Virus record (IMG/VR): IMGVR_UViG_3300045391_000822
Coordinates: 32,001 to 96,000 of that record
Length of the DNA stretch: 64,000 bases
Reading direction: 5' to 3' (one strand)
From: a virus
In this document: positions 1,609-23,937 of the stretch, piece by piece
Position numbering within the stretch: position 1 is the stretch's first letter
How the letters are laid out: the number at the start of each line of letters is the position of its first letter
Position numbers and translations under genes: made by a program
The notes under the pieces: generated by a model
Database searches by the model: none
The model's input: the letters and a program-made list of their open reading frames with translations, nothing else
Told to the model about the DNA's origin: nothing

Positions 1609-2544
1609 ATGAGCACTAGCCGTATCTTGATCAACGGAGCTGACCTTTTGGAAATTGCCACCTATCCTGGTGGCGAAGTTCGTATAGGCGCTATCCCTTC
1701 CGGGCGTATCAACTATATCAAGGCACATATATCTGATAGCGACGGAATCATCGCGCTCCAGCAATTGGCAGATCTTCTTCGCCGCCAGTCTGTTCGCAAA
1801 TGGGGCACCTATGATGGTATGGAATTACCTCGTGGACCAGCTGTGTTGCCACCCTTGATTTTACCGTACGTACCTTACGCACGCCAGGATCGTGTGAAGT
1901 TGGATACCGTGTACAACCAGAGTCATGCTCTTCGCGTATTTTGTGATACGTTGAATGCTATGGGATGGTCGAAGATTACGATCTGGGATCCTCATTCGGA
2001 TGTTGCGCCTGCGTTGATTAACAACGTGGAGGTGATTACTCGTACTCAGATGATTGAGACTACCATCAATCAAATCAAGGCTCGGTTTTATGAAAAACCG
2101 ATTGCTCTTGTAGTTCCGGATGCCGGTGCTTTGAAAGCCTCGTTGGAGCTAGCGGAAGCATTCCGAATAGAAACGGTCTGCCAAGGCGAGAAGGTTCGTA
2201 ATATGAGAACCGGAGAAATCACTGGATCGTTCGTACACAACGTCGCTCACCTGCGTAACAAGGTAGTGTTGATAGCAGACGACATCTGTGATGGTGGCAG
2301 AACGTTTACGGGGCTTGCTGAATTTGTTCGCGGACACATCGCGGTTGAAGCGATGGTCCTGTACGTGACCCATGGTATTTTCAGTAAAGGTATGCGGGTT
2401 ATGATGGACTATTTCAATATGGTGGCTACGCCGAATCAATTCATGCCGCCGCATACTGACATATCTGGGAAAACCCAATATCTGGCAGAAGCAACAGGCA
2501 TAGTAGTTAACACCTACGGACACACCGTCGTTTACAGCAACTGA
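1609..2544 (+). CDS. ribose-phosphate pyrophosphokinase-like protein (probable NARP1 Adps, ADPR-PP synthetase)
   Basis: YPGGE, PYVPYARQDR, DPHS, VVPDAGA, DDICDGGRTF and VTHGIFSKG are Prs-family motifs; directly upstream of a Nampt-like gene. Confidence 0.9.
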   Translation: MSTSRILINGADLLEIATYPGGEVRIGAIPSGRINYIKAHISDSDGIIALQQLADLLRRQSVRKWGTYDGMELPRGPAVLPPLILPYVPYARQDRVKLDTVYNQSHALRVFCDTLNAMGWSKITIWDPHSDVAPALINNVEVITRTQMIETTINQIKARFYEKPIALVVPDAGALKASLELAEAFRIETVCQGEKVRNMRTGEITGSFVHNVAHLRNKVVLIADDICDGGRTFTGLAEFVRGHIAVEAMVLYVTHGIFSKGMRVMMDYFNMVATPNQFMPPHTDISGKTQYLAEATGIVVNTYGHTVVYSN

Positions 2545-2568
2545 TTCGTACACAAGAGAACAATAGAT

Positions 2569-4371
2569 ATGAACCAAGAACGTAAGCAAGCCCTGATATC
2601 TCGTATCAATGCCGGAGATCATGATCTTACCATGATGTACTGCGCGCCTCTCTTGAAAGACGTGTACAAGGTAGGTCACATCTTTCAATATCCGGACAAC
2701 ACGCAGTTGGTCTACTCGAATATGACACCACGTTCAGACAAACATCTACGTGGTCGCGTAAACGAACGGGTATACGATCAGAAATCTGTTTTCTTCGGCC
2801 TGCAAGGCTTCATAATCGAAGTCTTGATGGATCATTGGAACAAGACTTTCTTTCATCGTTCGTGGTCTGAAGTAGGTGACGTGTACAAGCGTTATGTAGA
2901 TGCTGTCCTGAATACAGATTTTCCGGTCGATCATATCAAGGCGCTTCACAAGCTGGGGTACCTTCCGATTGAAATCCGAGCCTTACCGGAAGGTACGTTG
3001 GTGCCCTTTAAGATTCCTGTGTATACGGTGCACAATACGAATCCTAACTTCGGGTGGGTAACCAATATGTTGGAAACGGTCATGAGCTCCGATACATGGA
3101 AGCCTGCAACGGTGGCCACGTTGGCCTATAACTTCCGACGGACACTTGATTACTGGGCGGAAAAGACTGGTGGCATATCAGCCCTGCTTCAATGGCAAGG
3201 CCATGACTTCAGTTTCCGTGGTATGTCCAATCATCAGGATGCTGCGGCTTGTGGTGTTGGCCATCTTTGCTCGTTTTCTGGAACCGATACGTTGCCGAGT
3301 ATTGCGCGTGCAGAATTCTTGTATGGTGCGGACGTAAACAAACAGATTGTCGGTGGCTCCGTTAATGCTACGGAACATTCCGTCATGTGTATCAATGGTG
3401 GTGATGGCGAGTTGGAGACATACAAACGTCTCTTGCAAAAATACCCCACAGGTATTCTCAGTATCGTCAGCGATAGCTTCGATCTGTGGCAAGTTATCAA
3501 CGAATGGGCGCCGGGACCGCTTCGTAGCCTCATTGAAGGCCGTCAAGGTAAGGTGGTGTTCCGCCCGGATAGCGGCAATCCTGCTGATATCCTTTGCGGT
3601 ACGGTTCGTGGAATACCAAATCATTCTCAGCAAGAACTGTTCTTTGCCTATGGAGAAGCTCTGGGTACCGAAACCTTGGTTAAGGAAGTCCGTGAGGAAT
3701 ATTTCTACGTTTATTGCGTAGAAGACGATACCTATTATAAGGTCGTCGTTAAAGATGATGCCGTGGCAGAATTCGGTATGTATTTTCTTATACAAGGAGT
3801 TTTTGATGCAGACATTACGCCCGAAATGCGTGGCGTTGTAGACTGCCTGGGTTACCATTTTGGTACGGTCACCAATGAAAAGGGCTACAATGACCTTGCA
3901 GCTTGTGTTGGTACTATCTACGGTGACAGTATCAATCCTCGTCTCTTCGATGAAATCCTGAAGCGACTGGCTGACAAAGGATATAGCTCCAACTGCGTTG
4001 TCGTCGGTATCGGTAGCTACAGCTATCAGTACATGACCCGTGATACTTTGGGCTCGGCTGTTAAAGCCACCTTTGGTGTTGTTGGTGGTGTCGGTCGAGG
4101 GATCCTTAAAGATCCGAAGACAGGTGACGGTATAAAGAAAAGCGCCTATGGGCTCCTGACTGTGGCCGATATGGCAGGTGGAGGGCAAGAGCCTCTACTG
4201 GAATTGATGGACGGCGAAGTAGATATCCCTGCCGAAGCTGTCTTCGAAGGTAACTTCGACAGTGGAGAGTTGAAACCTGTCTTCCGCAATGGGCATCTAC
4301 TGAAGTTCCAGACCTTGTCCGAGATTCGTATGCGCCTGCATGGTTGGGATGATAGCATTCCTTCTCTGTAG
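2569..4371 (+). CDS. nicotinamide phosphoribosyltransferase-like protein (probable NARP1 Namat)
   Basis: DVYKVGH, HDFSFRG, GTDT, ATEHSVM, SIVSDSFD, RPDSG, IYGDSI and KDPKTGDGIKKSA are Nampt-family motifs. Confidence 0.92.
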   Translation: MNQERKQALISRINAGDHDLTMMYCAPLLKDVYKVGHIFQYPDNTQLVYSNMTPRSDKHLRGRVNERVYDQKSVFFGLQGFIIEVLMDHWNKTFFHRSWSEVGDVYKRYVDAVLNTDFPVDHIKALHKLGYLPIEIRALPEGTLVPFKIPVYTVHNTNPNFGWVTNMLETVMSSDTWKPATVATLAYNFRRTLDYWAEKTGGISALLQWQGHDFSFRGMSNHQDAAACGVGHLCSFSGTDTLPSIARAEFLYGADVNKQIVGGSVNATEHSVMCINGGDGELETYKRLLQKYPTGILSIVSDSFDLWQVINEWAPGPLRSLIEGRQGKVVFRPDSGNPADILCGTVRGIPNHSQQELFFAYGEALGTETLVKEVREEYFYVYCVEDDTYYKVVVKDDAVAEFGMYFLIQGVFDADITPEMRGVVDCLGYHFGTVTNEKGYNDLAACVGTIYGDSINPRLFDEILKRLADKGYSSNCVVVGIGSYSYQYMTRDTLGSAVKATFGVVGGVGRGILKDPKTGDGIKKSAYGLLTVADMAGGGQEPLLELMDGEVDIPAEAVFEGNFDSGELKPVFRNGHLLKFQTLSEIRMRLHGWDDSIPSL

Positions 4372-14151: not shown

Positions 14152-14235
14152 AGTTGTGCTGTAGCTCAGAGGCCGAGTAGCCTTACCATCAAATCGACGT
14201 AAGGCCGACGTGGGTTCGATTCCCACCAGCACTCC
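14152..14235 (+). tRNA. atypical tRNA-like RNA (7-bp anticodon stem, 12-nt loop, no CCA)
   Basis: Canonical T arm GTGGG-TTCGATT-CCCAC, a D arm and a GTGCTG/CAGCAC acceptor, but anticodon arm GCCTTAC-CATCAAATCGAC-GTAAGGC. Confidence 0.7.
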
Positions 14236-14237
14236 CT

Positions 14238-14313
14238 AGCACCTTAGCTCAGTCGGTAGAGCAGCGGCTCGATAAGCCGTAGGTCGTAGGTTCGAACCCT
14301 ACAGGTACTACCA
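14238..14313 (+). tRNA. tRNA-Ile(GAU)
   Basis: Cloverleaf, loop TCGATAA (C33), CCA. Confidence 0.9.
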
Positions 14314-15113: not shown

Positions 15114-15195
15114 GGATCCATCGCATAATGGTATTGCAGTGGATTGTAAATCCGCCACCCTTTGGGTATTGTTGGTTCGAGTCCAGCTGGATCCA
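15114..15195 (+). tRNA. tRNA-Tyr(GUA), no encoded CCA
   Basis: Loop TTGTAAA, long variable arm; acceptor stem continued by a 16-bp flanking inverted repeat. Confidence 0.9.
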
Positions 15196-15220
15196 CAGAA
15201 CGTATTCTGTAAATGTTTGA

Positions 15221-15296
15221 TGCGGGGTAGCTCAGTTGGTAGAGCGGAGGTTTCATACGCCTCTTGTCGTGGGTTCGAGTCCCACTCCCGCTACCA
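15221..15296 (+). tRNA. tRNA-Met(CAU), initiator-like 1:72 mismatch
   Basis: Loop TTCATAC, U1:U72 mismatch, CCA. Confidence 0.88.
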
Positions 15297-20371: not shown

Positions 20372-20444
20372 CTCGCGTGGTCAGGTAGGTTATGTGATGG
20401 ATTGCAATCCATCTAGACTGGTTCGATTCCAGTACGCGAGTCCA
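20372..20444 (+). tRNA. tRNA-Cys(GCA), non-canonical anticodon loop size
   Basis: CTCGCGT/ACGCGAG, U73, CCA; GATGGA-TTGCAA-TCCATC. Confidence 0.82.
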
Positions 20445-20766: not shown

Positions 20767-20994
20767 ATGGGTAAACTGTCCAGGCATAAGAAAACGAAGA
20801 TGGGTGCATTACCTGGTGACATACCTTTGCAGTCCAAGGTAGAAATGCTAGAAAAAGGTAAGGCCGCAATTCGATTTTCAAAAGGCTATTCCCAGGAAAT
20901 GGGAAAGAAGGCGAGTAAGGCATTCAAGAAAATACTACGTGGACCTGAGAGAGCGCGTCTTAAAGAACGCTGTAGAACAGAGTTTGAAGAATAA
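20767..20994 (+). CDS. small basic hypothetical protein
   Basis: 75-aa Lys/Arg-rich ORF. Confidence 0.55.
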   Translation: MGKLSRHKKTKMGALPGDIPLQSKVEMLEKGKAAIRFSKGYSQEMGKKASKAFKKILRGPERARLKERCRTEFEE

Positions 20995-21011
20995 GTGATT
21001 CCGTAAATAAT

Positions 21012-21125
21012 ATGGAGTCGCTTTTCAACTACTTGGTGGCGAGGGCTATCGGTTACTTCCAGACTTTGAATCTGACCAAAACACCGTTGCTAATTATTCC
21101 CCAAGTAGCTGAAAAGCGATTCCGT
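21012..21125 (+). ncRNA. Y-RNA-like unit 1 (minimal; Gln-UUG anticodon stem-loop)
   Basis: ~24-bp closing stem, GGTGGCGAGG...GGTTACTTC-[CAGA-CTTTGAA-TCTG]...ATTCCCC. Confidence 0.78.
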
Positions 21126-21140
21126 AAATAACTGTGAAGA

Positions 21141-21313
21141 AGTTATCTTTGATTCTAGCAGTGGCGTAGCTGTGCAGTTACTTCGACTGTTAATCGAGTG
21201 GTCGCAGGTTCGAGTCCTGTCACTGCGTAAGTGGTGTAGCTCAGTTGGATAGAGCACTTGGCCGAAAGGCCGTTCCTGCAGGCGAGGGTTCCCTGCTAGA
21301 ATCAAAGATAATT
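21141..21313 (+). ncRNA. Y-RNA-like unit 2 (YrlA-like permuted tRNA module, Asn-GUU loop)
   Basis: 21-bp closing stem; AGTGGCGTAG...GTTACTTC, loop CTGTTAA, T arm, acceptor capped by GTAA, D arm, GTTCCCT. Confidence 0.88.
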
Positions 21314-21314
21314 T

Positions 21315-21473
21315 AGACTGTTATGATGTGTGCGGTGGTGAAGTATACGATTCCATCTCAACCAGTGGGTCGCGGGTTCGAGTCCCGTCTATCCGTCAGG
21401 ATAGTAGATCAGTTGGTAGATCAACCGGCAATTAATCGTACACGATTGTTCCCCGCACACATCATAGCAGTCT
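21315..21473 (+). ncRNA. Y-RNA-like unit 3 (YrlA-like)
   Basis: 21-bp closing stem; GGTGGTGAAG; T arm GCGGG-TTCGAGT-CCCGT, CTATCC-GTCA-GGATAG, D arm TAGATCAGTTGGTAGATC; TTGTTCCCC. Confidence 0.86.
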
Positions 21474-21487
21474 CAGAGTTTTAGTTT

Positions 21488-21633
21488 AGCAGTGGCGTAG
21501 ATAACAGTTACTTCGCATGGAAAGCCGGTACCGTAAGGTTGCGCTAGTTCGAATCTAGCCCCTCCCAAATCTGTGGGAGGGTAGGGAAGTGGATAAACCC
21601 GCCGTAACGTTCTGTTGTCGTTTGTTCCCTGCT
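21488..21633 (+). ncRNA. Y-RNA-like unit 4 (permuted tRNA-Ser mimic, GGA loop, long variable arm)
   Basis: AGCAGTGGCGTAG...GTTACTTC-GC-ATGGAAA-GC, variable arm ACC-GTAA-GGT, T arm, capped acceptor, Ser-type D loop, TTGTTCCCTGCT. Confidence 0.86.
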
Positions 21634-21635
21634 TT

Positions 21636-21711
21636 ACATCCATCGTCTAGAGGCCTAGGACACTGCCCTTTCACGGCAGGTACGCGGGTTCGAATCCCGC
21701 TGGGTGTGCCA
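21636..21711 (+). tRNA. tRNA-Glu(UUC)
   Basis: Loop CTTTCAC, Glu-type D arm, GCCA. Confidence 0.93.
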
Positions 21712-21781
21712 GTTTAGGCTCCTTGTTTCACGGACATGCTAGTCCGAGGTTTTGAAACTGGAACAAGGAGTCCTTCTTAGT

Positions 21782-21891
21782 TTTGCAGTGGCGTAATTAA
21801 TCGAGTTCATCGCTAATTGGATAAGCACTGGGGCTTGGTCCCAGTTTAGTGGTTCGATTCCACGCTCTCGATAATGTCTGTTCCCTGCAAA
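21782..21891 (+). ncRNA. Y-RNA-like unit 5 (non-permuted D-anticodon-T module)
   Basis: TTTGCAGTGGCGTAA...GTTCCCTGCAAA enclosing GCT-AATTGGATA-AGC, ACTGGG-GCTTGGT-CCCAGT and GTGG-TTCGATT-CCAC. Confidence 0.8.
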
Positions 21892-21902
21892 TTGATTTAT
21901 GT

Positions 21903-21978
21903 GGTGCGTTAGCTCAGTTGGTAGAGCGCTGGATTGTCTATCCAGAAGTCAGGAGTTCGAGCCTCCTACGCATCGCCA
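21903..21978 (+). tRNA. tRNA-Asp(GUC)
   Basis: Loop TTGTCTA, GCCA end. Confidence 0.93.
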
Positions 21979-22073
21979 AGTTTGGACCACCAGCTTGTTA
22001 ACTGAATCTGATTCATATGGCTCAGCGCGCTAGTGACCAGCTTTTTTGTAGAAGCTGGTGGTCCTACTAGTTT

Positions 22074-22189
22074 GGTAGTGGCGTAGTTAGTCGGTTACTT
22101 CTTTGCAAGAGAATGCTAGGTTCGATTCCTGGTGCGGCCGGAAGGCTGTAGGCATGGCGCCAACTACCCGACAACGTTTGTTCCCTACC
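22074..22189 (+). ncRNA. Y-RNA-like unit 6 (permuted module, Cys-GCA loop)
   Basis: GGTAGTGGCGTAG...GGTTACTTC, TTCT-TTGCAAG-AGAA, T arm, GCGGCC-GGAA-GGCTGT, short D arm, TTGTTCCCTACC. Confidence 0.84.
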
Positions 22190-22372
22190 TACCCTGTCTC
22201 TGTTTCTGCCTGACGCAGAGATACGCGCTGTCAAGTTCTTGTAGACCCGGTGGGGCCGGCACCTATGAGGATTTGACAGCGCATCTTTTTGGGGTTGGTG
22301 AGGAAGTTGAACGTCTACGAACTACCGAAGTTCGTTCTTTCATCTGTCACTCTTCACTACAAAGGAGCCAAA

Positions 22373-23845
22373 ATGGCCCACCTCAACCGTAAAGCTGATC
22401 CGCATCGTAAAGCGGTAACCAAAGAATCTGTCCTTAACAATGCTCCGTTCGAGCAACTTTCCCGTGCAGTGATGACCTGCCTGCTGTGGGAAGGTACTGA
22501 AGACGAACGCATATCCAAGCTCGTTCCCAGCGTTCCGCTGGAAGATGTAGCGTACCTGGCACGGACGGCACATGAAGATATGAAGCTGCGCCATGTGCCG
22601 CTACTCCTGGCTCGGGAAATGGCGCGCCATCCAGGTCGTGTGGAAAATCCTTCCGTCATCGCGAACACGATTGAAGCGGTTATCAACCGTCCTGATTCAT
22701 TGACGGAATTCCTGGCTATCTATTGGAAGGATGGACGTCAGCCATTGTCAGGCCAGGTAAAGAAAGGTCTGGCTCGCGCATTTGCAAAATTCAGCGAGTA
22801 TCAACTAGCGAAGTACAATCGTGATCACGAAGTGAAGTTGCGCGACGTGCTCTTCCTTTCACATGCAAAGCCGAAAGACGTTGAACCTGGTTCTGCTTTG
22901 TGGAATAAGGATGCGCGTACCAACTACAAACCAAACAAGGGGTTTGTACGCGAGTTCACGAAAGGCGAACTCCTGTATGGTCGAGTAGTTCACGATCAGT
23001 TGGTTTCCCCAGAAACGTGGGAAAACAAGCTGTCACGCGGCAAAGACAAGAAAGAAACGTTTGCTGATTTGATGAAGAGTGGTAAGTTGGGAGGCCTGGC
23101 TTTCCTGCGTAACCTGCGCAATATCAAAGAAGCCGGCATATCTAAGGATGTGGTCAATAGCTATGCAGATGTAGCCAAGGTTGATGGAATCCTGCCTTTC
23201 CAGTTCATGTCTGCGCAACGTGCAGTTCCTGAATGGGAAGATGCCATCGAGAAGATGATGCTCCGCGCAGTGGAGAACATTCCCAAACTACCAGGACGCA
23301 CGGTGTTGGTTGTGGACTTGTCGGGTTCCATGAGAGCGCAGATGGCAGATAAGTCGGGATTGGAACGTACTGATGTAGCGGCAGCATTCAGTGTTCTGTG
23401 CCGTGAACTGTGCGAGAACATTGCAGTGTTTGCTACGGCAGGTAACGACCATAGCCGGAAGCACGCTACGATAACTGTTCCGCCGCGTCGTGGATTTGCT
23501 TTGGCAGAAAAGCTGCGTGTTGGTGGAGATCAAGAAATCTATCGTCGCATTGGCCAAGGCGGTATTTTCCTTAAGCAGGTTACGGAGTTCGTTTCTGGCA
23601 CCCTTGGTGATCAAGATGTCGAACGTTGTATCGTCATCACTGACGAACAGGATACGGATATCGACGGAACTTCTGCGAAAGCAAAGTTGATCGGTAAACA
23701 CAACTACATCGTCAACATCGCGACGAACGCTCGAGGTATCGGTTACGGACGTTTCACCCATATCAATGGATGGTCCGAAGCTGTACTGAAGTTCATCGCA
23801 GCCTATGAAGCGAACGAAGAAACGATGCACAAAGGTGCAGCTTAA
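22373..23845 (+). CDS. rsr: Ro60/Rsr TROVE-vWA RNA-binding protein
   Basis: LRHVPLLL, KYNR, LRDVLFLSH, TWE..LS and LGGLAFLRNLRNI (TROVE); VVDLSGSM MIDAS and ITDEQ (vWA); RBS AAGGAG before the ATG at 22373. Confidence 0.93.
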   Translation: MAHLNRKADPHRKAVTKESVLNNAPFEQLSRAVMTCLLWEGTEDERISKLVPSVPLEDVAYLARTAHEDMKLRHVPLLLAREMARHPGRVENPSVIANTIEAVINRPDSLTEFLAIYWKDGRQPLSGQVKKGLARAFAKFSEYQLAKYNRDHEVKLRDVLFLSHAKPKDVEPGSALWNKDARTNYKPNKGFVREFTKGELLYGRVVHDQLVSPETWENKLSRGKDKKETFADLMKSGKLGGLAFLRNLRNIKEAGISKDVVNSYADVAKVDGILPFQFMSAQRAVPEWEDAIEKMMLRAVENIPKLPGRTVLVVDLSGSMRAQMADKSGLERTDVAAAFSVLCRELCENIAVFATAGNDHSRKHATITVPPRRGFALAEKLRVGGDQEIYRRIGQGGIFLKQVTEFVSGTLGDQDVERCIVITDEQDTDIDGTSAKAKLIGKHNYIVNIATNARGIGYGRFTHINGWSEAVLKFIAAYEANEETMHKGAA

Positions 23846-23863
23846 CTAGTTCGTAAATAGGAT

Positions 23864-23891
23864 AGCGGGAGGCAAGAACATGCCTCCCGCT
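23864..23891 (+). terminator. stem-loop after rsr
   Basis: AGCGGGAGGCA-AGAACA-TGCCTCCCGCT; no clear U tract. Confidence 0.45.
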
Positions 23892-23937
23892 CGTATGCGG
23901 CTCACGACCTGTAAAGAGCCAAGAATTCAAAACCCCT

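What the first reader, a model, noticed from the sequence alone, without database searches (positions are those of the whole stretch)
21012..23845. Array of six Y-RNA-like RNAs with a constant scaffold and swappable tRNA-mimic modules, upstream of a phage Ro60/Rsr gene
Seen: six units (21012, 21141, 21315, 21488, 21782, 22074) share one scaffold: closing stem-RGTGGCGTAG-upper stem-GTTACTTC-[module]-upper stem'-TTGTTCCCY. Stem sequences differ between copies but pairing is kept. The module differs in each: a Gln-UUG stem-loop only; a permuted tRNA with an Asn-GUU loop; a YrlA-like module with no clear anticodon; a permuted Ser mimic with a GGA loop and long variable arm; a non-permuted D-anticodon-T module; and a permuted module with a Cys-GCA loop. 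The array lies just upstream of an intact TROVE-vWA gene. Known: bacterial Rsr genes usually have one or two adjacent Y RNAs, and YrlA has a GNCGAAN(0-1)G-type motif and a permuted T-acceptor-D domain. Inference: a modular Ro60 RNP system in which one protein is loaded with a panel of non-chargeable tRNA mimics. These could be decoys or baits for anticodon nucleases and tRNA-targeting toxins, or tethers recruiting different tRNA-binding partners.
Basis: partly seen in the sequence, partly recalled or inferred. Interest (0 to 1): 0.93.

Follow-up and report, generated by a model that had tools for sequence, protein, structure and literature searches.

The report
Six-gene Y RNA array beside Ro60
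A large phage carries six small RNA genes in a row, all with the handle that the ring protein Ro60 (gene next door) is expected to grip, and each with a different tRNA-like head. Such multi-RNA arrays prove common beside Ro60 genes of phages and bacteria, though papers describe mostly one or two such RNAs (four beside the Deinococcus gene).

Summary
Six units (21011-22191, + strand) share one scaffold just upstream of an intact Ro60/Rsr gene (22373-23845). Stems differ between units but pairing is kept: 90.7% paired against 40-50% when partners are slid, and 14 of 18 pairs show compensatory change.

My long-form covariance model finds all six (37-111 bits) and nothing else in the 155.6-kb record except tandem-tRNA artefacts. 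Rfam YrlA matches unit 3 end to end, but below its cut-off (50.3 against 69 bits).

The units are Y RNAs of the YrlA/YrlB kind, interleaved with real tRNA-Glu and tRNA-Asp. This recalls the Deinococcus Yrn2-tRNAAsp-Yrn1 transcript.

In 61 phage loci I counted 1-8 units, most often 2-3. Caulobacter phage CcrPW has eight, unannotated. Arrays of 3-5 also occur in Acidobacteriota and Planctomycetota genomes.

The "anticodon" loops sit in the hairpin that Chen et al. 2014 called V. 38 of 150 such loops are identical to real tRNA anticodon loops, against 1.2 expected by chance.

The decoy idea remains untested. This scan has noted similar Ro60-linked RNA arrays on other DNA. I class this as a new variant of a known kind.

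The parts
21000..21009 (+). Promoter-like motif TCCGTAAATA in front of U1
   Evidence: TYCGTAAATA occurs exactly 5 times in the window, all on the + strand: 17887, 18677, 21000, 21121 and 23850. My estimate for exact matches by chance is about 0.2. The sigma-70 scan also flags 20984-21011. The promoter role is inferred.
21011..21126 (+). U1: short-form Y RNA. About 30-bp bulged closing helix, GGCGAGG motif, and a single hairpin CAGA[CUUUGAA]UCUG (21060-21074)
   Evidence: Fold -50.6 kcal/mol. R1 36.2 bits. R2 37.0 bits.
21121..21130 (+). Second copy of the promoter-like motif TCCGTAAATA, overlapping the 3' end of U1
21140..21314 (+). U2: long-form Y RNA with a 22-bp closing stem. Contains an anticodon-arm-like hairpin UUCGA[CUGUUAA]UCGAG (21182-21198), UGGUC, T arm, closed acceptor-like stem, UA, D arm and an extra GGCC-GAAA-GGCC hairpin
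   Evidence: R2 97.4 bits. Rfam YrlA 44.8 bits over model positions 24-84. ARAGORN misreads 21157-21228 as tRNA-Asn. Rfam tRNA 28.3 bits, below its cut-off of 29.
21315..21473 (+). U3: near-canonical YrlA, directly abutting U2. GGUGAAG motif, T arm, CUAUCC/GGAUAG closed stem, UA, D arm
   Evidence: Rfam YrlA 50.3 bits, E 6e-10, model 1-114, cut-off 69. R2 110.8 bits. R1 41.1 bits.
21487..21635 (+). U4: long-form Y RNA with a class-II-tRNA-like head. Loop AUGGAAA (21517-21523), ACC-GUAA-GGU variable-arm hairpin, T arm, 7-bp closed stem, D arm. Its 3' end abuts tRNA-Glu
   Evidence: R2 87.7 bits. Similar long-armed units in CcrPW (L092:596-759) and in L104:3107-3272.
21636..21711 (+). Genuine tRNA-Glu(UUC)
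   Evidence: Rfam tRNA 57.2 bits. ARAGORN.
21717..21773 (+). Long hairpin after tRNA-Glu (terminator or processing site, inferred)
   Evidence: Fold -26.7 kcal/mol, z -3.6.
21782..21892 (+). U5: Y RNA whose head is in native tRNA order. D-like hairpin GCU-AAUUGGAUA-AGC, a plain 8-bp hairpin, and T arm GUGG-UUCGAUU-CCAC. The upper stem takes the place of the acceptor stem
   Evidence: R2 37.9 bits. Folds. Similar D-hairpin-T units in L055:3501-3589 and L083:8861-8954.
21903..21978 (+). Genuine tRNA-Asp(GUC)
   Evidence: Rfam tRNA 64.2 bits. ARAGORN.
21984..22064 (+). Long hairpin after tRNA-Asp
   Evidence: Fold -36.5 kcal/mol, z -4.25.
22073..22191 (+). U6: long-form Y RNA. UUCU[UUGCAAG]AGAA (22099-22113), T arm, GCGGCC-GGAA-GGCUGU closed stem, UA, reduced D arm
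   Evidence: R1 48.3 bits. R2 73.1 bits.
22192..22295 (+). Two hairpins. The second (22225-22283) has about 25 pairs and is followed by AUCUUUUU, so it looks like a terminator between the array and rsr
   Evidence: Fold -55.3 kcal/mol, z -4.1.
22373..23845 (+). rsr: Ro60 homologue of 490 aa (TROVE plus vWA with a DLSGS MIDAS motif)
   Evidence: Pfam TROVE 56.2 bits, cut-off 23. Matches Thermus phage phiLo Ro60 (9L5Y, 9KOP) at E 3e-18 over residues 41-485. Translation without stops.

Best explanation
The stretch is a cluster of six genes for Ro60 (Rsr)-binding Y RNAs of the bacterial YrlA/YrlB kind. They are co-transcribed with tRNA-Glu and tRNA-Asp upstream of the phage's own rsr gene.

Shown:
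- One covarying scaffold is shared by the six units and by about 200 units in other rsr loci. It has an invariant bulged helix (G, bulged U, GG opposite CCC) and a 5' strand GG(C/U)G(U/A)AG. This is a one-base variant of the GNCGAAN0-1G Rsr motif.
- The heads are tRNA-like. Four are of the YrlA type (T arm, closed acceptor-like stem, D arm), one is in native tRNA order, and one is a bare anticodon-arm-like hairpin.

Inferred:
- Transcription starts at the TYCGTAAATA motifs at 21000 and 21121.
- RNase P and 3' trimming at the embedded tRNAs, plus cleavage at the long closing stems and inter-unit hairpins, release discrete RNAs.
- The Rsr ring binds the scaffold helix of each RNA.
- The differing heads dock the particle on different host tRNA-binding proteins or nucleases, by analogy with the Rsr-Y RNA-PNPase complexes of Deinococcus, Salmonella and Thermus phage phiLo. 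This would redirect host RNA decay or tRNA metabolism during infection.
For: - Scaffold covariation within the six units, in 14 short units from 13 other loci (92.9% paired against about 50% slid), and in 27 long units (92.6% against 40-49%; 218 double changes against 70.8 in shuffles).
- Rfam YrlA matches U3 end to end at E 6e-10 and the U2 core at 2.4e-08.
- All six are found by R2, and nothing else in the record except tandem tRNAs.
- Linkage to rsr: about 196 hits in 63 sources, same strand as rsr in every rsr-oriented locus and mostly within 1 kb upstream. The same holds in 60 cellular loci and in three named isolates.
- The protein is a full-length Ro60 homologue.
- Precedents: the Yrn2-tRNAAsp-Yrn1 polycistron and the YrlA tRNA-like domain (PMC4201824); phiLo Ro60 binds two upstream Yrl RNAs and host PNPase (PMC12135203).
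Against: - No unit reaches Rfam's curated YrlA cut-off (best 50.3 against 69 bits).
- Every unit departs by one base from GNCGAAN0-1G.
- There are no expression or binding data. Promoter, processing and partner steps rest on motifs and analogy.
- A terminator-like hairpin lies between U6 and rsr, so co-expression with rsr is not assured.
- The record is only about 66% complete, so absences (RtcB, RNA ligase, CCA enzyme) are weak evidence.
Confidence: 0.82

Rival explanations
1. Decoy or bait panel. The Ro60-bound RNAs display real anticodon loops so that host anticodon nucleases or tRNA-targeting toxins bind or cut them instead of the tRNAs needed for phage translation, or so that cleavage is sensed.
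For: - The first hairpin has a 7-nt loop more often than any other length, with a C32-U33-NNN-A37-A38 signature.
- 38 of 150 loops are identical to a real anticodon loop in a 127-tRNA reference. The null with shuffled letters gives 1.2 (max 5). The null with triplets permuted gives 23 (max 31).
- Loop identity is kept while stems change. CUGUUAA sits on at least five different stems, and the GCU-type loop is kept in related units of five loci.
- Short units carry nothing but this hairpin.
- Triplets within an array are nearly always different.
Against: - There is no functional evidence.
- Stems are often only 3-4 bp.
- U3 and U5 have no such loop.
- The same arrays occur in chromosomes of free-living bacteria, where a phage counter-defence role does not apply directly.
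- A tRNA-dimer origin of Y RNAs (Sim and Wolin 2018, as cited in bioRxiv 10.1101/312249) could leave anticodon arms as relics.
- No RNA-repair partner genes were found.
Confidence: 0.18
2. Processed, possibly chargeable tRNA-like RNAs. As in M. smegmatis YrlA, RNase P cuts in the loop of the closed acceptor-like stem and CCA is added. The heads would then act as nicked tRNAs in translation-linked processes rather than as inert mimics.
For: [quoted passage not shown]
- U4 has a full 7-bp acceptor-like stem.
- The UA linker, T loop and D-loop GG are conserved.
- ARAGORN reads the 5' part of 12 long units, including U2, as tRNAs.
Against: - Cleavage was not seen for Salmonella YrlA or Deinococcus Yrn1 (PMC4201824).
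- Complementarity between the scaffold 5' end and the acceptor-like strand is not enriched (3.67 against 3.61 pairs of 7).
- U2 scores below the Rfam tRNA cut-off and has no D arm in that reading.
- No CCA-adding enzyme gene is present in the record.
Confidence: 0.08
3. Cis-acting leader of the rsr mRNA. The structured array would be a 5' untranslated region that controls rsr expression, for example by sensing tRNAs, and would not be a set of trans-acting RNAs.
For: - The array lies on the same strand directly upstream of rsr in most loci.
- There is a terminator-like hairpin between U6 and rsr.
Against: - In several phage loci the units lie downstream of rsr (L047, L032, L051) or more than 2 kb away (L012, L003).
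- Units are separated by genuine tRNAs and strong hairpins.
- Characterised homologues are discrete, Rsr-bound RNAs (PMC4201824, PMC12135203).
Confidence: 0.04
4. Decaying tRNA genes or tandem-tRNA debris in a phage tRNA cluster, without function.
For: - The region lies at the edge of a cluster of about 20 tRNA genes plus a tmRNA.
- Tandem tRNAs give weak hits to the long-form model.
Against: - Compensatory changes maintain the scaffold in about 200 units from more than 100 loci.
- The G-U-GG/CCC helix is invariant.
- Linkage to rsr and to its strand is strict.
- No such units occur elsewhere in the record.
Confidence: 0.02

Closest known systems
YrlA and YrlB Y RNAs with Rsr in Salmonella Typhimurium and Mycobacterium smegmatis, also mycobacteriophages (Chen et al. 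2014, PMC4201824; Rfam RF02553; structure in bioRxiv 10.1101/312249)
   Same: - Same-strand linkage to a Ro60 gene.
- A 5' GNCGAA-type motif, the YUAY hinge and a V hairpin.
- A permuted T arm, closed acceptor-like stem, UA linker and D arm in U2, U3, U4 and U6.
- A short hairpin-only partner (U1, like YrlB).
   Different: - Six RNAs where mostly one or two are described.
- Both strands of the Rsr helix are conserved, whereas only the 5' strand is recognisable in Salmonella and M. smegmatis.
- The motif is GGCGUAG or GGUGAAG.
- The V hairpin carries true anticodon-type 7-nt loops, whereas YrlA is described as lacking an anticodon loop.
- One head (U4) has a class II-like long variable arm.
- No unit reaches the Rfam cut-off.
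Deinococcus radiodurans Yrn1/Yrn2 locus (PMC4201824)
   Same: - Several small RNAs upstream of rsr (four were noted).
- Y RNAs are made as a polycistron with tRNA-Asp.
- Both strands of the Ro-binding helix are retained.
- The Yrn1 head has D-like, anticodon-arm-like and T elements in native order, as in U5.
   Different: - No sequence model of Yrn1 was available to test U5.
- The middle hairpin of U5 is a plain 8-bp stem.
- Here native-order and permuted heads sit on one and the same scaffold in one array, whereas the paper treats them as independent lineages.
Thermus phage phiLo Ro60 with Yrl1 and Yrl2 (PMC12135203; PDB 9KOP, 9L5Y)
   Same: - A phage-encoded Ro60 with Y-like RNAs directly upstream.
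- The protein is the only solved-structure match to this Rsr (E 3e-18).
- It forms complexes with host PNPase.
   Different: - Two RNAs without described tRNA-like heads, against six.
- RNA homology with Yrl1 and Yrl2 was not tested here, because I held no sequences for them.
Unannotated arrays in isolated phages: Caulobacter phage CcrPW (8 units), Xanthomonas phage Tenjo (5), Brevundimonas phage Papperlapapp (5)
   Same: - Same scaffold model, same position upstream of the Ro60 homologue, and the same mix of short and long heads.
- One CcrPW unit carries the same 17-nt hairpin UUCGACUGUUAAUCGAG as U2.
   Different: - The Rsr proteins are only about 39-40% identical.
- The records annotate none of these RNAs, and I found no paper describing them.

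Membership tests
YrlA (Rfam RF02553) | Covariance-model score at or above the curated gathering score (69 bits) | tested here: not met
   U3 50.3 bits (E 6e-10, full model). U2 44.8 bits (partial). U4 17.8 bits. U1, U5 and U6 gave no hit. This is homology below the curated cut-off.
YrlA (criteria of Chen et al. 2014) | Encoded within 4 kb of a Ro60 orthologue, on the same strand | tested here: met
   All six lie 180-1360 nt upstream of rsr on the + strand.
YrlA (criteria of Chen et al. 2014) | GNCGAAN0-1G motif near the 5' end | tested here: inconclusive
   Every unit departs by one base: GGCGUAG (U2, U4, U6), GGCGUAA (U5), GGUGAAG (U3), GGCGAGG (U1). Across the family the position is A or U, and exact GGCGAAG is common in other loci.
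YrlA (criteria of Chen et al. 2014) | T arm, closed acceptor-like stem-loop, UA linker and D arm, in that order | tested here: met
   Met for U2, U3 and U4, and for U6 with a reduced D arm. Not met for U1 (no tRNA-like core) or U5 (native order). The T, acceptor-like and D helices are 91-100% paired with compensatory changes in 27 long units.
Y RNA (functional definition) | Bound and stabilised by Ro60/Rsr | not testable with these tools
   Needs binding assays or immunoprecipitation. Only genomic linkage and the conserved helix are shown.
Y RNA (structural hallmark) | 5' and 3' ends pair into a conserved bulged helix | tested here: met
   G6-C68, G8-C67 and G9-C66 are invariant or nearly so, with a bulged U. 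The flanking closing stem covaries.
Yrn1-type head (D. radiodurans) | D-like, anticodon-arm-like and T elements in native tRNA order | tested here: inconclusive
   The predicted fold of U5 has this order. No Yrn1 sequence or model was at hand for a homology test.
Genuine tRNA | Rfam tRNA model at or above 29 bits, with four arms and a free acceptor end | tested here: not met
   U2 28.3 bits, with no D arm in that reading. U5 scores 20.9 bits on tRNA-Sec at E 0.36. The acceptor-like stems are closed by loops.
Ro60/Rsr protein | TROVE domain plus vWA domain with a MIDAS motif, full length | tested here: met
   Pfam TROVE 56.2 bits against a cut-off of 23. Alignment to phiLo Ro60 over residues 41-485. 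DLSGS motif present and the frame is open.

The most novel reading that the evidence does not exclude
Ro60 particles of phages and bacteria are display platforms. Each Y RNA in an array presents a genuine anticodon stem-loop of a particular identity (GUU and GCU types are the most widespread, and are kept while their stems drift). Presented this way, the loops would serve as decoys or sensors for anticodon-directed nucleases and toxins, or as guides that bring Ro60 and its exonuclease to particular tRNA-binding enzymes. Array size and composition would then reflect the set of tRNA-directed threats or partners that a lineage meets.
Probability: 0.15. Interest if true: 0.9.

Novelty: new variant of a known kind. 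Interest (0 to 1): 0.6.

Why it matters
What the tRNA-like heads of bacterial Y RNAs bind has been open since 2014.

This locus, and the family it belongs to, show three things:
- One Ro60-binding handle carries many kinds of head: permuted, native-order, class II-like and bare anticodon arm.
- The loops copy real anticodon loops.
- Arrays of up to eight such RNAs sit unannotated in culturable phages such as CcrPW (Caulobacter) and Tenjo (Xanthomonas).

That gives concrete, genetically tractable systems for asking what the heads recruit. It also gives intermediate forms that bear on the proposed tRNA-dimer origin of Y RNAs.

There is a practical point as well. tRNA finders mis-call the 5' part of these RNAs as tRNA genes.

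Tried and rejected
- Megablast of 20900-23900 against phage records found nothing.
- Scanning IMG/VR for GTGGCGTAN{5,14}TTACTTC gave mostly chance hits. I kept only loci that passed a full descriptor.
- My first loose descriptor gave about 13 chance hits per genome and missed U1.
- R1 with filters off cannot span long units, so it lost U3 and U6, which the default search finds. R1 missed U2, U4 and U5, so I built R2.
- MFE-based calling of the first hairpin was noisy. I replaced it by enumeration of hairpins.
- I tested whether long units keep an alternative tRNA fold, with the scaffold 5' end pairing with the acceptor-like strand as ARAGORN implies. There was no enrichment in a fixed register. 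Offset registers were not tested.
- RtcB, Rnl2-type ligase and CCA-adding enzyme were not found in the record.
- The nearest capsid relatives (phiRSL1, BcepSauron, Motura) gave no match to this Rsr protein, so they offered no comparison.
- The supplements of Chen 2014 and the 2020 Annual Review were not held, so I could not read published per-genome Y RNA counts.
- I rejected readings as pseudo-tRNAs, as an rsr leader, or as a repeat element. The reasons are given under the rival explanations.


Full report
**Observation**

The sequence shows six units on the + strand between 21011 and 22191. A 490-codon open frame follows at 22373-23845.

Each unit has the same parts in the same order:
- a closing stem
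- G-U-GG(C/U)G(U/A)A(G)
- an upper stem of 8-9 bp with a bulge
- (U)UACUUC
- a variable interior
- the return strand of the upper stem
- (G)UUUG-UUCCC
- the return strand of the closing stem

Otherwise the description holds.

On an alignment of the six units, my hand-drawn scaffold is 90.7% paired. With partners slid by 1-3 columns it is 40-50% paired. 14 of 18 pairs change on both sides, and 0 of 500 shuffles reach this. So stem sequences differ while pairing is kept.

Two genuine tRNAs lie inside the array. tRNA-Glu (21636-21711) abuts the 3' end of U4. tRNA-Asp (21903-21978) follows U5.

**What the units are**

Rfam's YrlA model (RF02553) aligns to U3 over its whole length: 50.3 bits, E 6e-10, against a curated cut-off of 69. 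It aligns to the T, acceptor-like and D core of U2 at 44.8 bits, and weakly to U4.

The downstream protein has a TROVE domain. It aligns over residues 41-485 to the Ro60 of Thermus phage phiLo, the only solved-structure match. It carries a DLSGS MIDAS motif.

Chen et al. 2014 (PMC4201824) define YrlA by four features:
- linkage to Ro60 on the same strand
- a 5' GNCGAAN0-1G motif
- a YUAY that starts a 'V' region
- nearly invariant T and D arms separated by a closed acceptor-like stem

The scaffold here is that Rsr-binding module. GG(C/U)G(U/A)AG is a one-base variant of the motif, and UUAC is the YUAY.

**The family beyond this window**

Using the Rsr protein I fetched 56 IMG/VR loci at 38-57% identity. 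A simple descriptor already showed the same scaffold just upstream of rsr in most of them.

I built two covariance models:
- R1, from 14 short units of 13 loci. 92.9% paired against about 50% slid; 56 double-change cells against 19.5 in shuffles.
- R2, from 27 long units. 28 pairs, 92.6% paired against 40-49% slid; 218 double changes against 70.8. The T, acceptor-like and D helices all covary.

R2 finds all six window units: U3 110.8, U2 97.4, U4 87.7, U6 73.1, U5 37.9 and U1 37.0 bits. In the whole 155.6-kb record it finds nothing else except weak hits on tandem tRNAs. Chen et al. warn about that artefact.

Across 63 sources there are about 196 hits, on the rsr strand in every rsr-oriented locus. 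Most lie within 1 kb upstream of rsr, and a few lie just downstream.

Units per phage locus, as lower bounds:

| Units in locus | Number of loci |
|---|---|
| 1 | 5 |
| 2 | 19 |
| 3 | 18 |
| 4 | 9 |
| 5 | 3 |
| 6 | 5 |
| 8 | 2 |

The script that made this table counted five units for the window, because U5 fell outside the stored alignments. The window truly has six.

Named isolates carry such arrays without any annotation:
- Caulobacter phage CcrPW: 8 units, in a 1.37-kb 'empty' gap
- Xanthomonas phage Tenjo: 5 units
- Brevundimonas phage Papperlapapp: 5 units

Sixty cellular loci also gave 144 hits, with arrays of 3-5 frequent. These are Acidobacteriota, Planctomycetota, Desulfobacterales and others.

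So six is in the upper tail of a common architecture and is not a singular case. The nearest relatives by capsid (phiRSL1, BcepSauron, Motura; 64-70% identity) gave no match to this Rsr protein. The cassette is therefore accessory in this lineage.

**The heads**

Interior lengths fall into three groups:
- 18-34 nt: one hairpin
- 36-60 nt: a hairpin plus a second hairpin, or a T arm
- 63-94 nt: a tRNA-like core

In the window:
- U1 is a short form.
- U2, U3, U4 and U6 are YrlA-type long forms.
- U4 has an extra ACC-GUAA-GGU hairpin where class II tRNAs carry their long variable arm. Counterparts exist in CcrPW and in L104.
- U5 has D-like, hairpin and T elements in native tRNA order, with the upper stem in place of the acceptor stem. 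This is the topology that Chen et al. describe for Deinococcus Yrn1. Similar units occur in other arrays.

That is the position of the V stem-loop of Chen et al.

Across the family this hairpin most often has a 7-nt loop (47 of 123 with stems of at least 4 bp). Those loops show C32, U33, A37 and A38.

38 of 150 candidate loops are letter-for-letter identical to a real anticodon loop in a reference set of 127 tRNAs from the same loci. After shuffling letters the count is 1.2 (maximum 5). After permuting only the triplets it is 23 (maximum 31).

In long units the hairpin is followed by 4-5 nt, often AGGUC or UGGUC, and then the T arm, as in a tRNA.

Loop identity is retained while stems change:
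- CUGUUAA sits on at least five different stems.
- U2 and a CcrPW unit share an identical 17-nt hairpin.
- A GCU-type loop is kept in related units of five loci.

Triplets within one array are almost always different.

Published descriptions say that YrlA lacks an anticodon loop (bioRxiv 10.1101/312249). This is therefore the main new feature. Whether the hairpin is presented like an anticodon arm or like a variable arm cannot be told from sequence.

**Origin**

These forms fit the proposal that YrlA arose from a tRNA dimer (Sim and Wolin 2018, as cited in the same preprint). In U2:
- the scaffold 5' end plus the hairpin, variable loop, T arm and one acceptor-like strand read as a near-tRNA (ARAGORN; Rfam tRNA 28.3 bits)
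- the second half starts with AGUGGUGUAGCU, a near copy of the scaffold's AGUGGCGUAGCU

ARAGORN makes the same call on 12 long units. However, complementarity that would support a conserved alternative tRNA fold is not enriched. I therefore treat this as ancestry and an annotation pitfall, not as a switch.

**Expression signals (inferred)**

TYCGTAAATA occurs exactly five times in the window, all on the + strand and at intergenic sites. Two of them are at 21000 (before U1) and 21121 (before U2).

U1, U2 and U3 have closing helices of roughly 20-30 bp, and U2 abuts U3.

Strong long hairpins follow tRNA-Glu, tRNA-Asp and U6. The last has a U run (z from -3.6 to -4.3).

Processing by RNase P at the tRNAs has a precedent in the Deinococcus Yrn2-tRNAAsp-Yrn1 precursor (PMC4201824).

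**Mechanism**

Most likely, each RNA is bound by the Rsr ring at the invariant G-U-GG/CCC helix, and the heads tether the particle to tRNA-binding host factors. The precedents are Rsr-Y RNA-PNPase in Deinococcus and Salmonella, and phiLo Ro60-Yrl-host PNPase (PMC12135203).

The decoy or bait idea is compatible with the loop data but has no direct support. The same arrays exist in free-living bacteria. No RNA-repair genes were found in the record, which is only about 66% complete.

**Literature and earlier notes**

Searches for YrlA, Y RNA, TROVE and phage found no description of multi-unit arrays or of anticodon-type loops.

Earlier notes of this scan report similar Ro60-linked arrays of four to eight RNAs on other DNA. 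I did not test those loci. My own census agrees in kind.

**Verdict**

This is a real six-gene Y RNA array beside a phage Ro60 gene. It is a new variant of a known kind. Its interest lies in the diversity of heads on one handle and in the true anticodon-type loops. The count of six is not what makes it interesting.

Noticed in passing
window 17887, 18677, 21000, 21121, 23850 (+): The motif TYCGTAAATA occurs exactly five times, all on the + strand and in front of RNA genes or after a gene end. It is probably a phage promoter element.
   Followed up: partly
window 20372-20441 (+): A tRNA-like sequence just below the Rfam tRNA cut-off (27.9 against 29 bits). ARAGORN reports a two-base 'anticodon' for it. 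It directly abuts tRNA-Ser(GCU) and may be an aberrant or decaying tRNA.
   Followed up: partly
L176 (Caulobacter phage CcrPW, NC_048046.1) 2182-3373: Eight Y-RNA-like units fill an unannotated 1.37-kb gap upstream of the 'RNA-binding protein' gp440. The small hypothetical ORF gp439 on the opposite strand lies inside the array and is probably spurious.
   Followed up: partly
12 long units in other loci, e.g. L052:3338-3411, L047:4702-4773, L127:3728-3801: ARAGORN calls a tRNA starting at the 5' end of long Y units, as it does for U2. This is a likely source of false tRNA genes in phage annotations.
   Followed up: yes
window 14170-14301 and 15171-15246: Tandem genuine tRNAs give weak hits to the long-form Y RNA model (35.4 and 24.2 bits), through the T arm of one tRNA plus the D arm of the next. 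Chen et al. warn about this artefact, and it fits a tRNA-dimer origin.
   Followed up: partly
family-wide (loops of about 74 canonical hairpins): About half of the anticodon-like triplets end in U followed by AA (GUU 12, GCU 11, UGU 4, UUU 2, UCU 2 and others). In real tRNAs this is the context of t6A37 modification (my own knowledge, untested here).
   Followed up: no
L181-L240 (cellular genomes): The same scaffold and arrays of 3-5 units lie upstream of rsr in Acidobacteriota, Planctomycetota, Desulfobacterales and some archaeal MAG contigs. I did not check whether these sit in prophages.
   Followed up: partly
window 1609-4371 (+): Adjacent genes for ribose-phosphate pyrophosphokinase and nicotinamide phosphoribosyltransferase, an NAD salvage pair.
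   Followed up: no
window 21314/21315: U2 and U3 abut with no spacer. The 22-bp closing stem of U2 ends one base before the 20-bp closing stem of U3 begins, which suggests release by a double-strand-specific nuclease.
   Followed up: no
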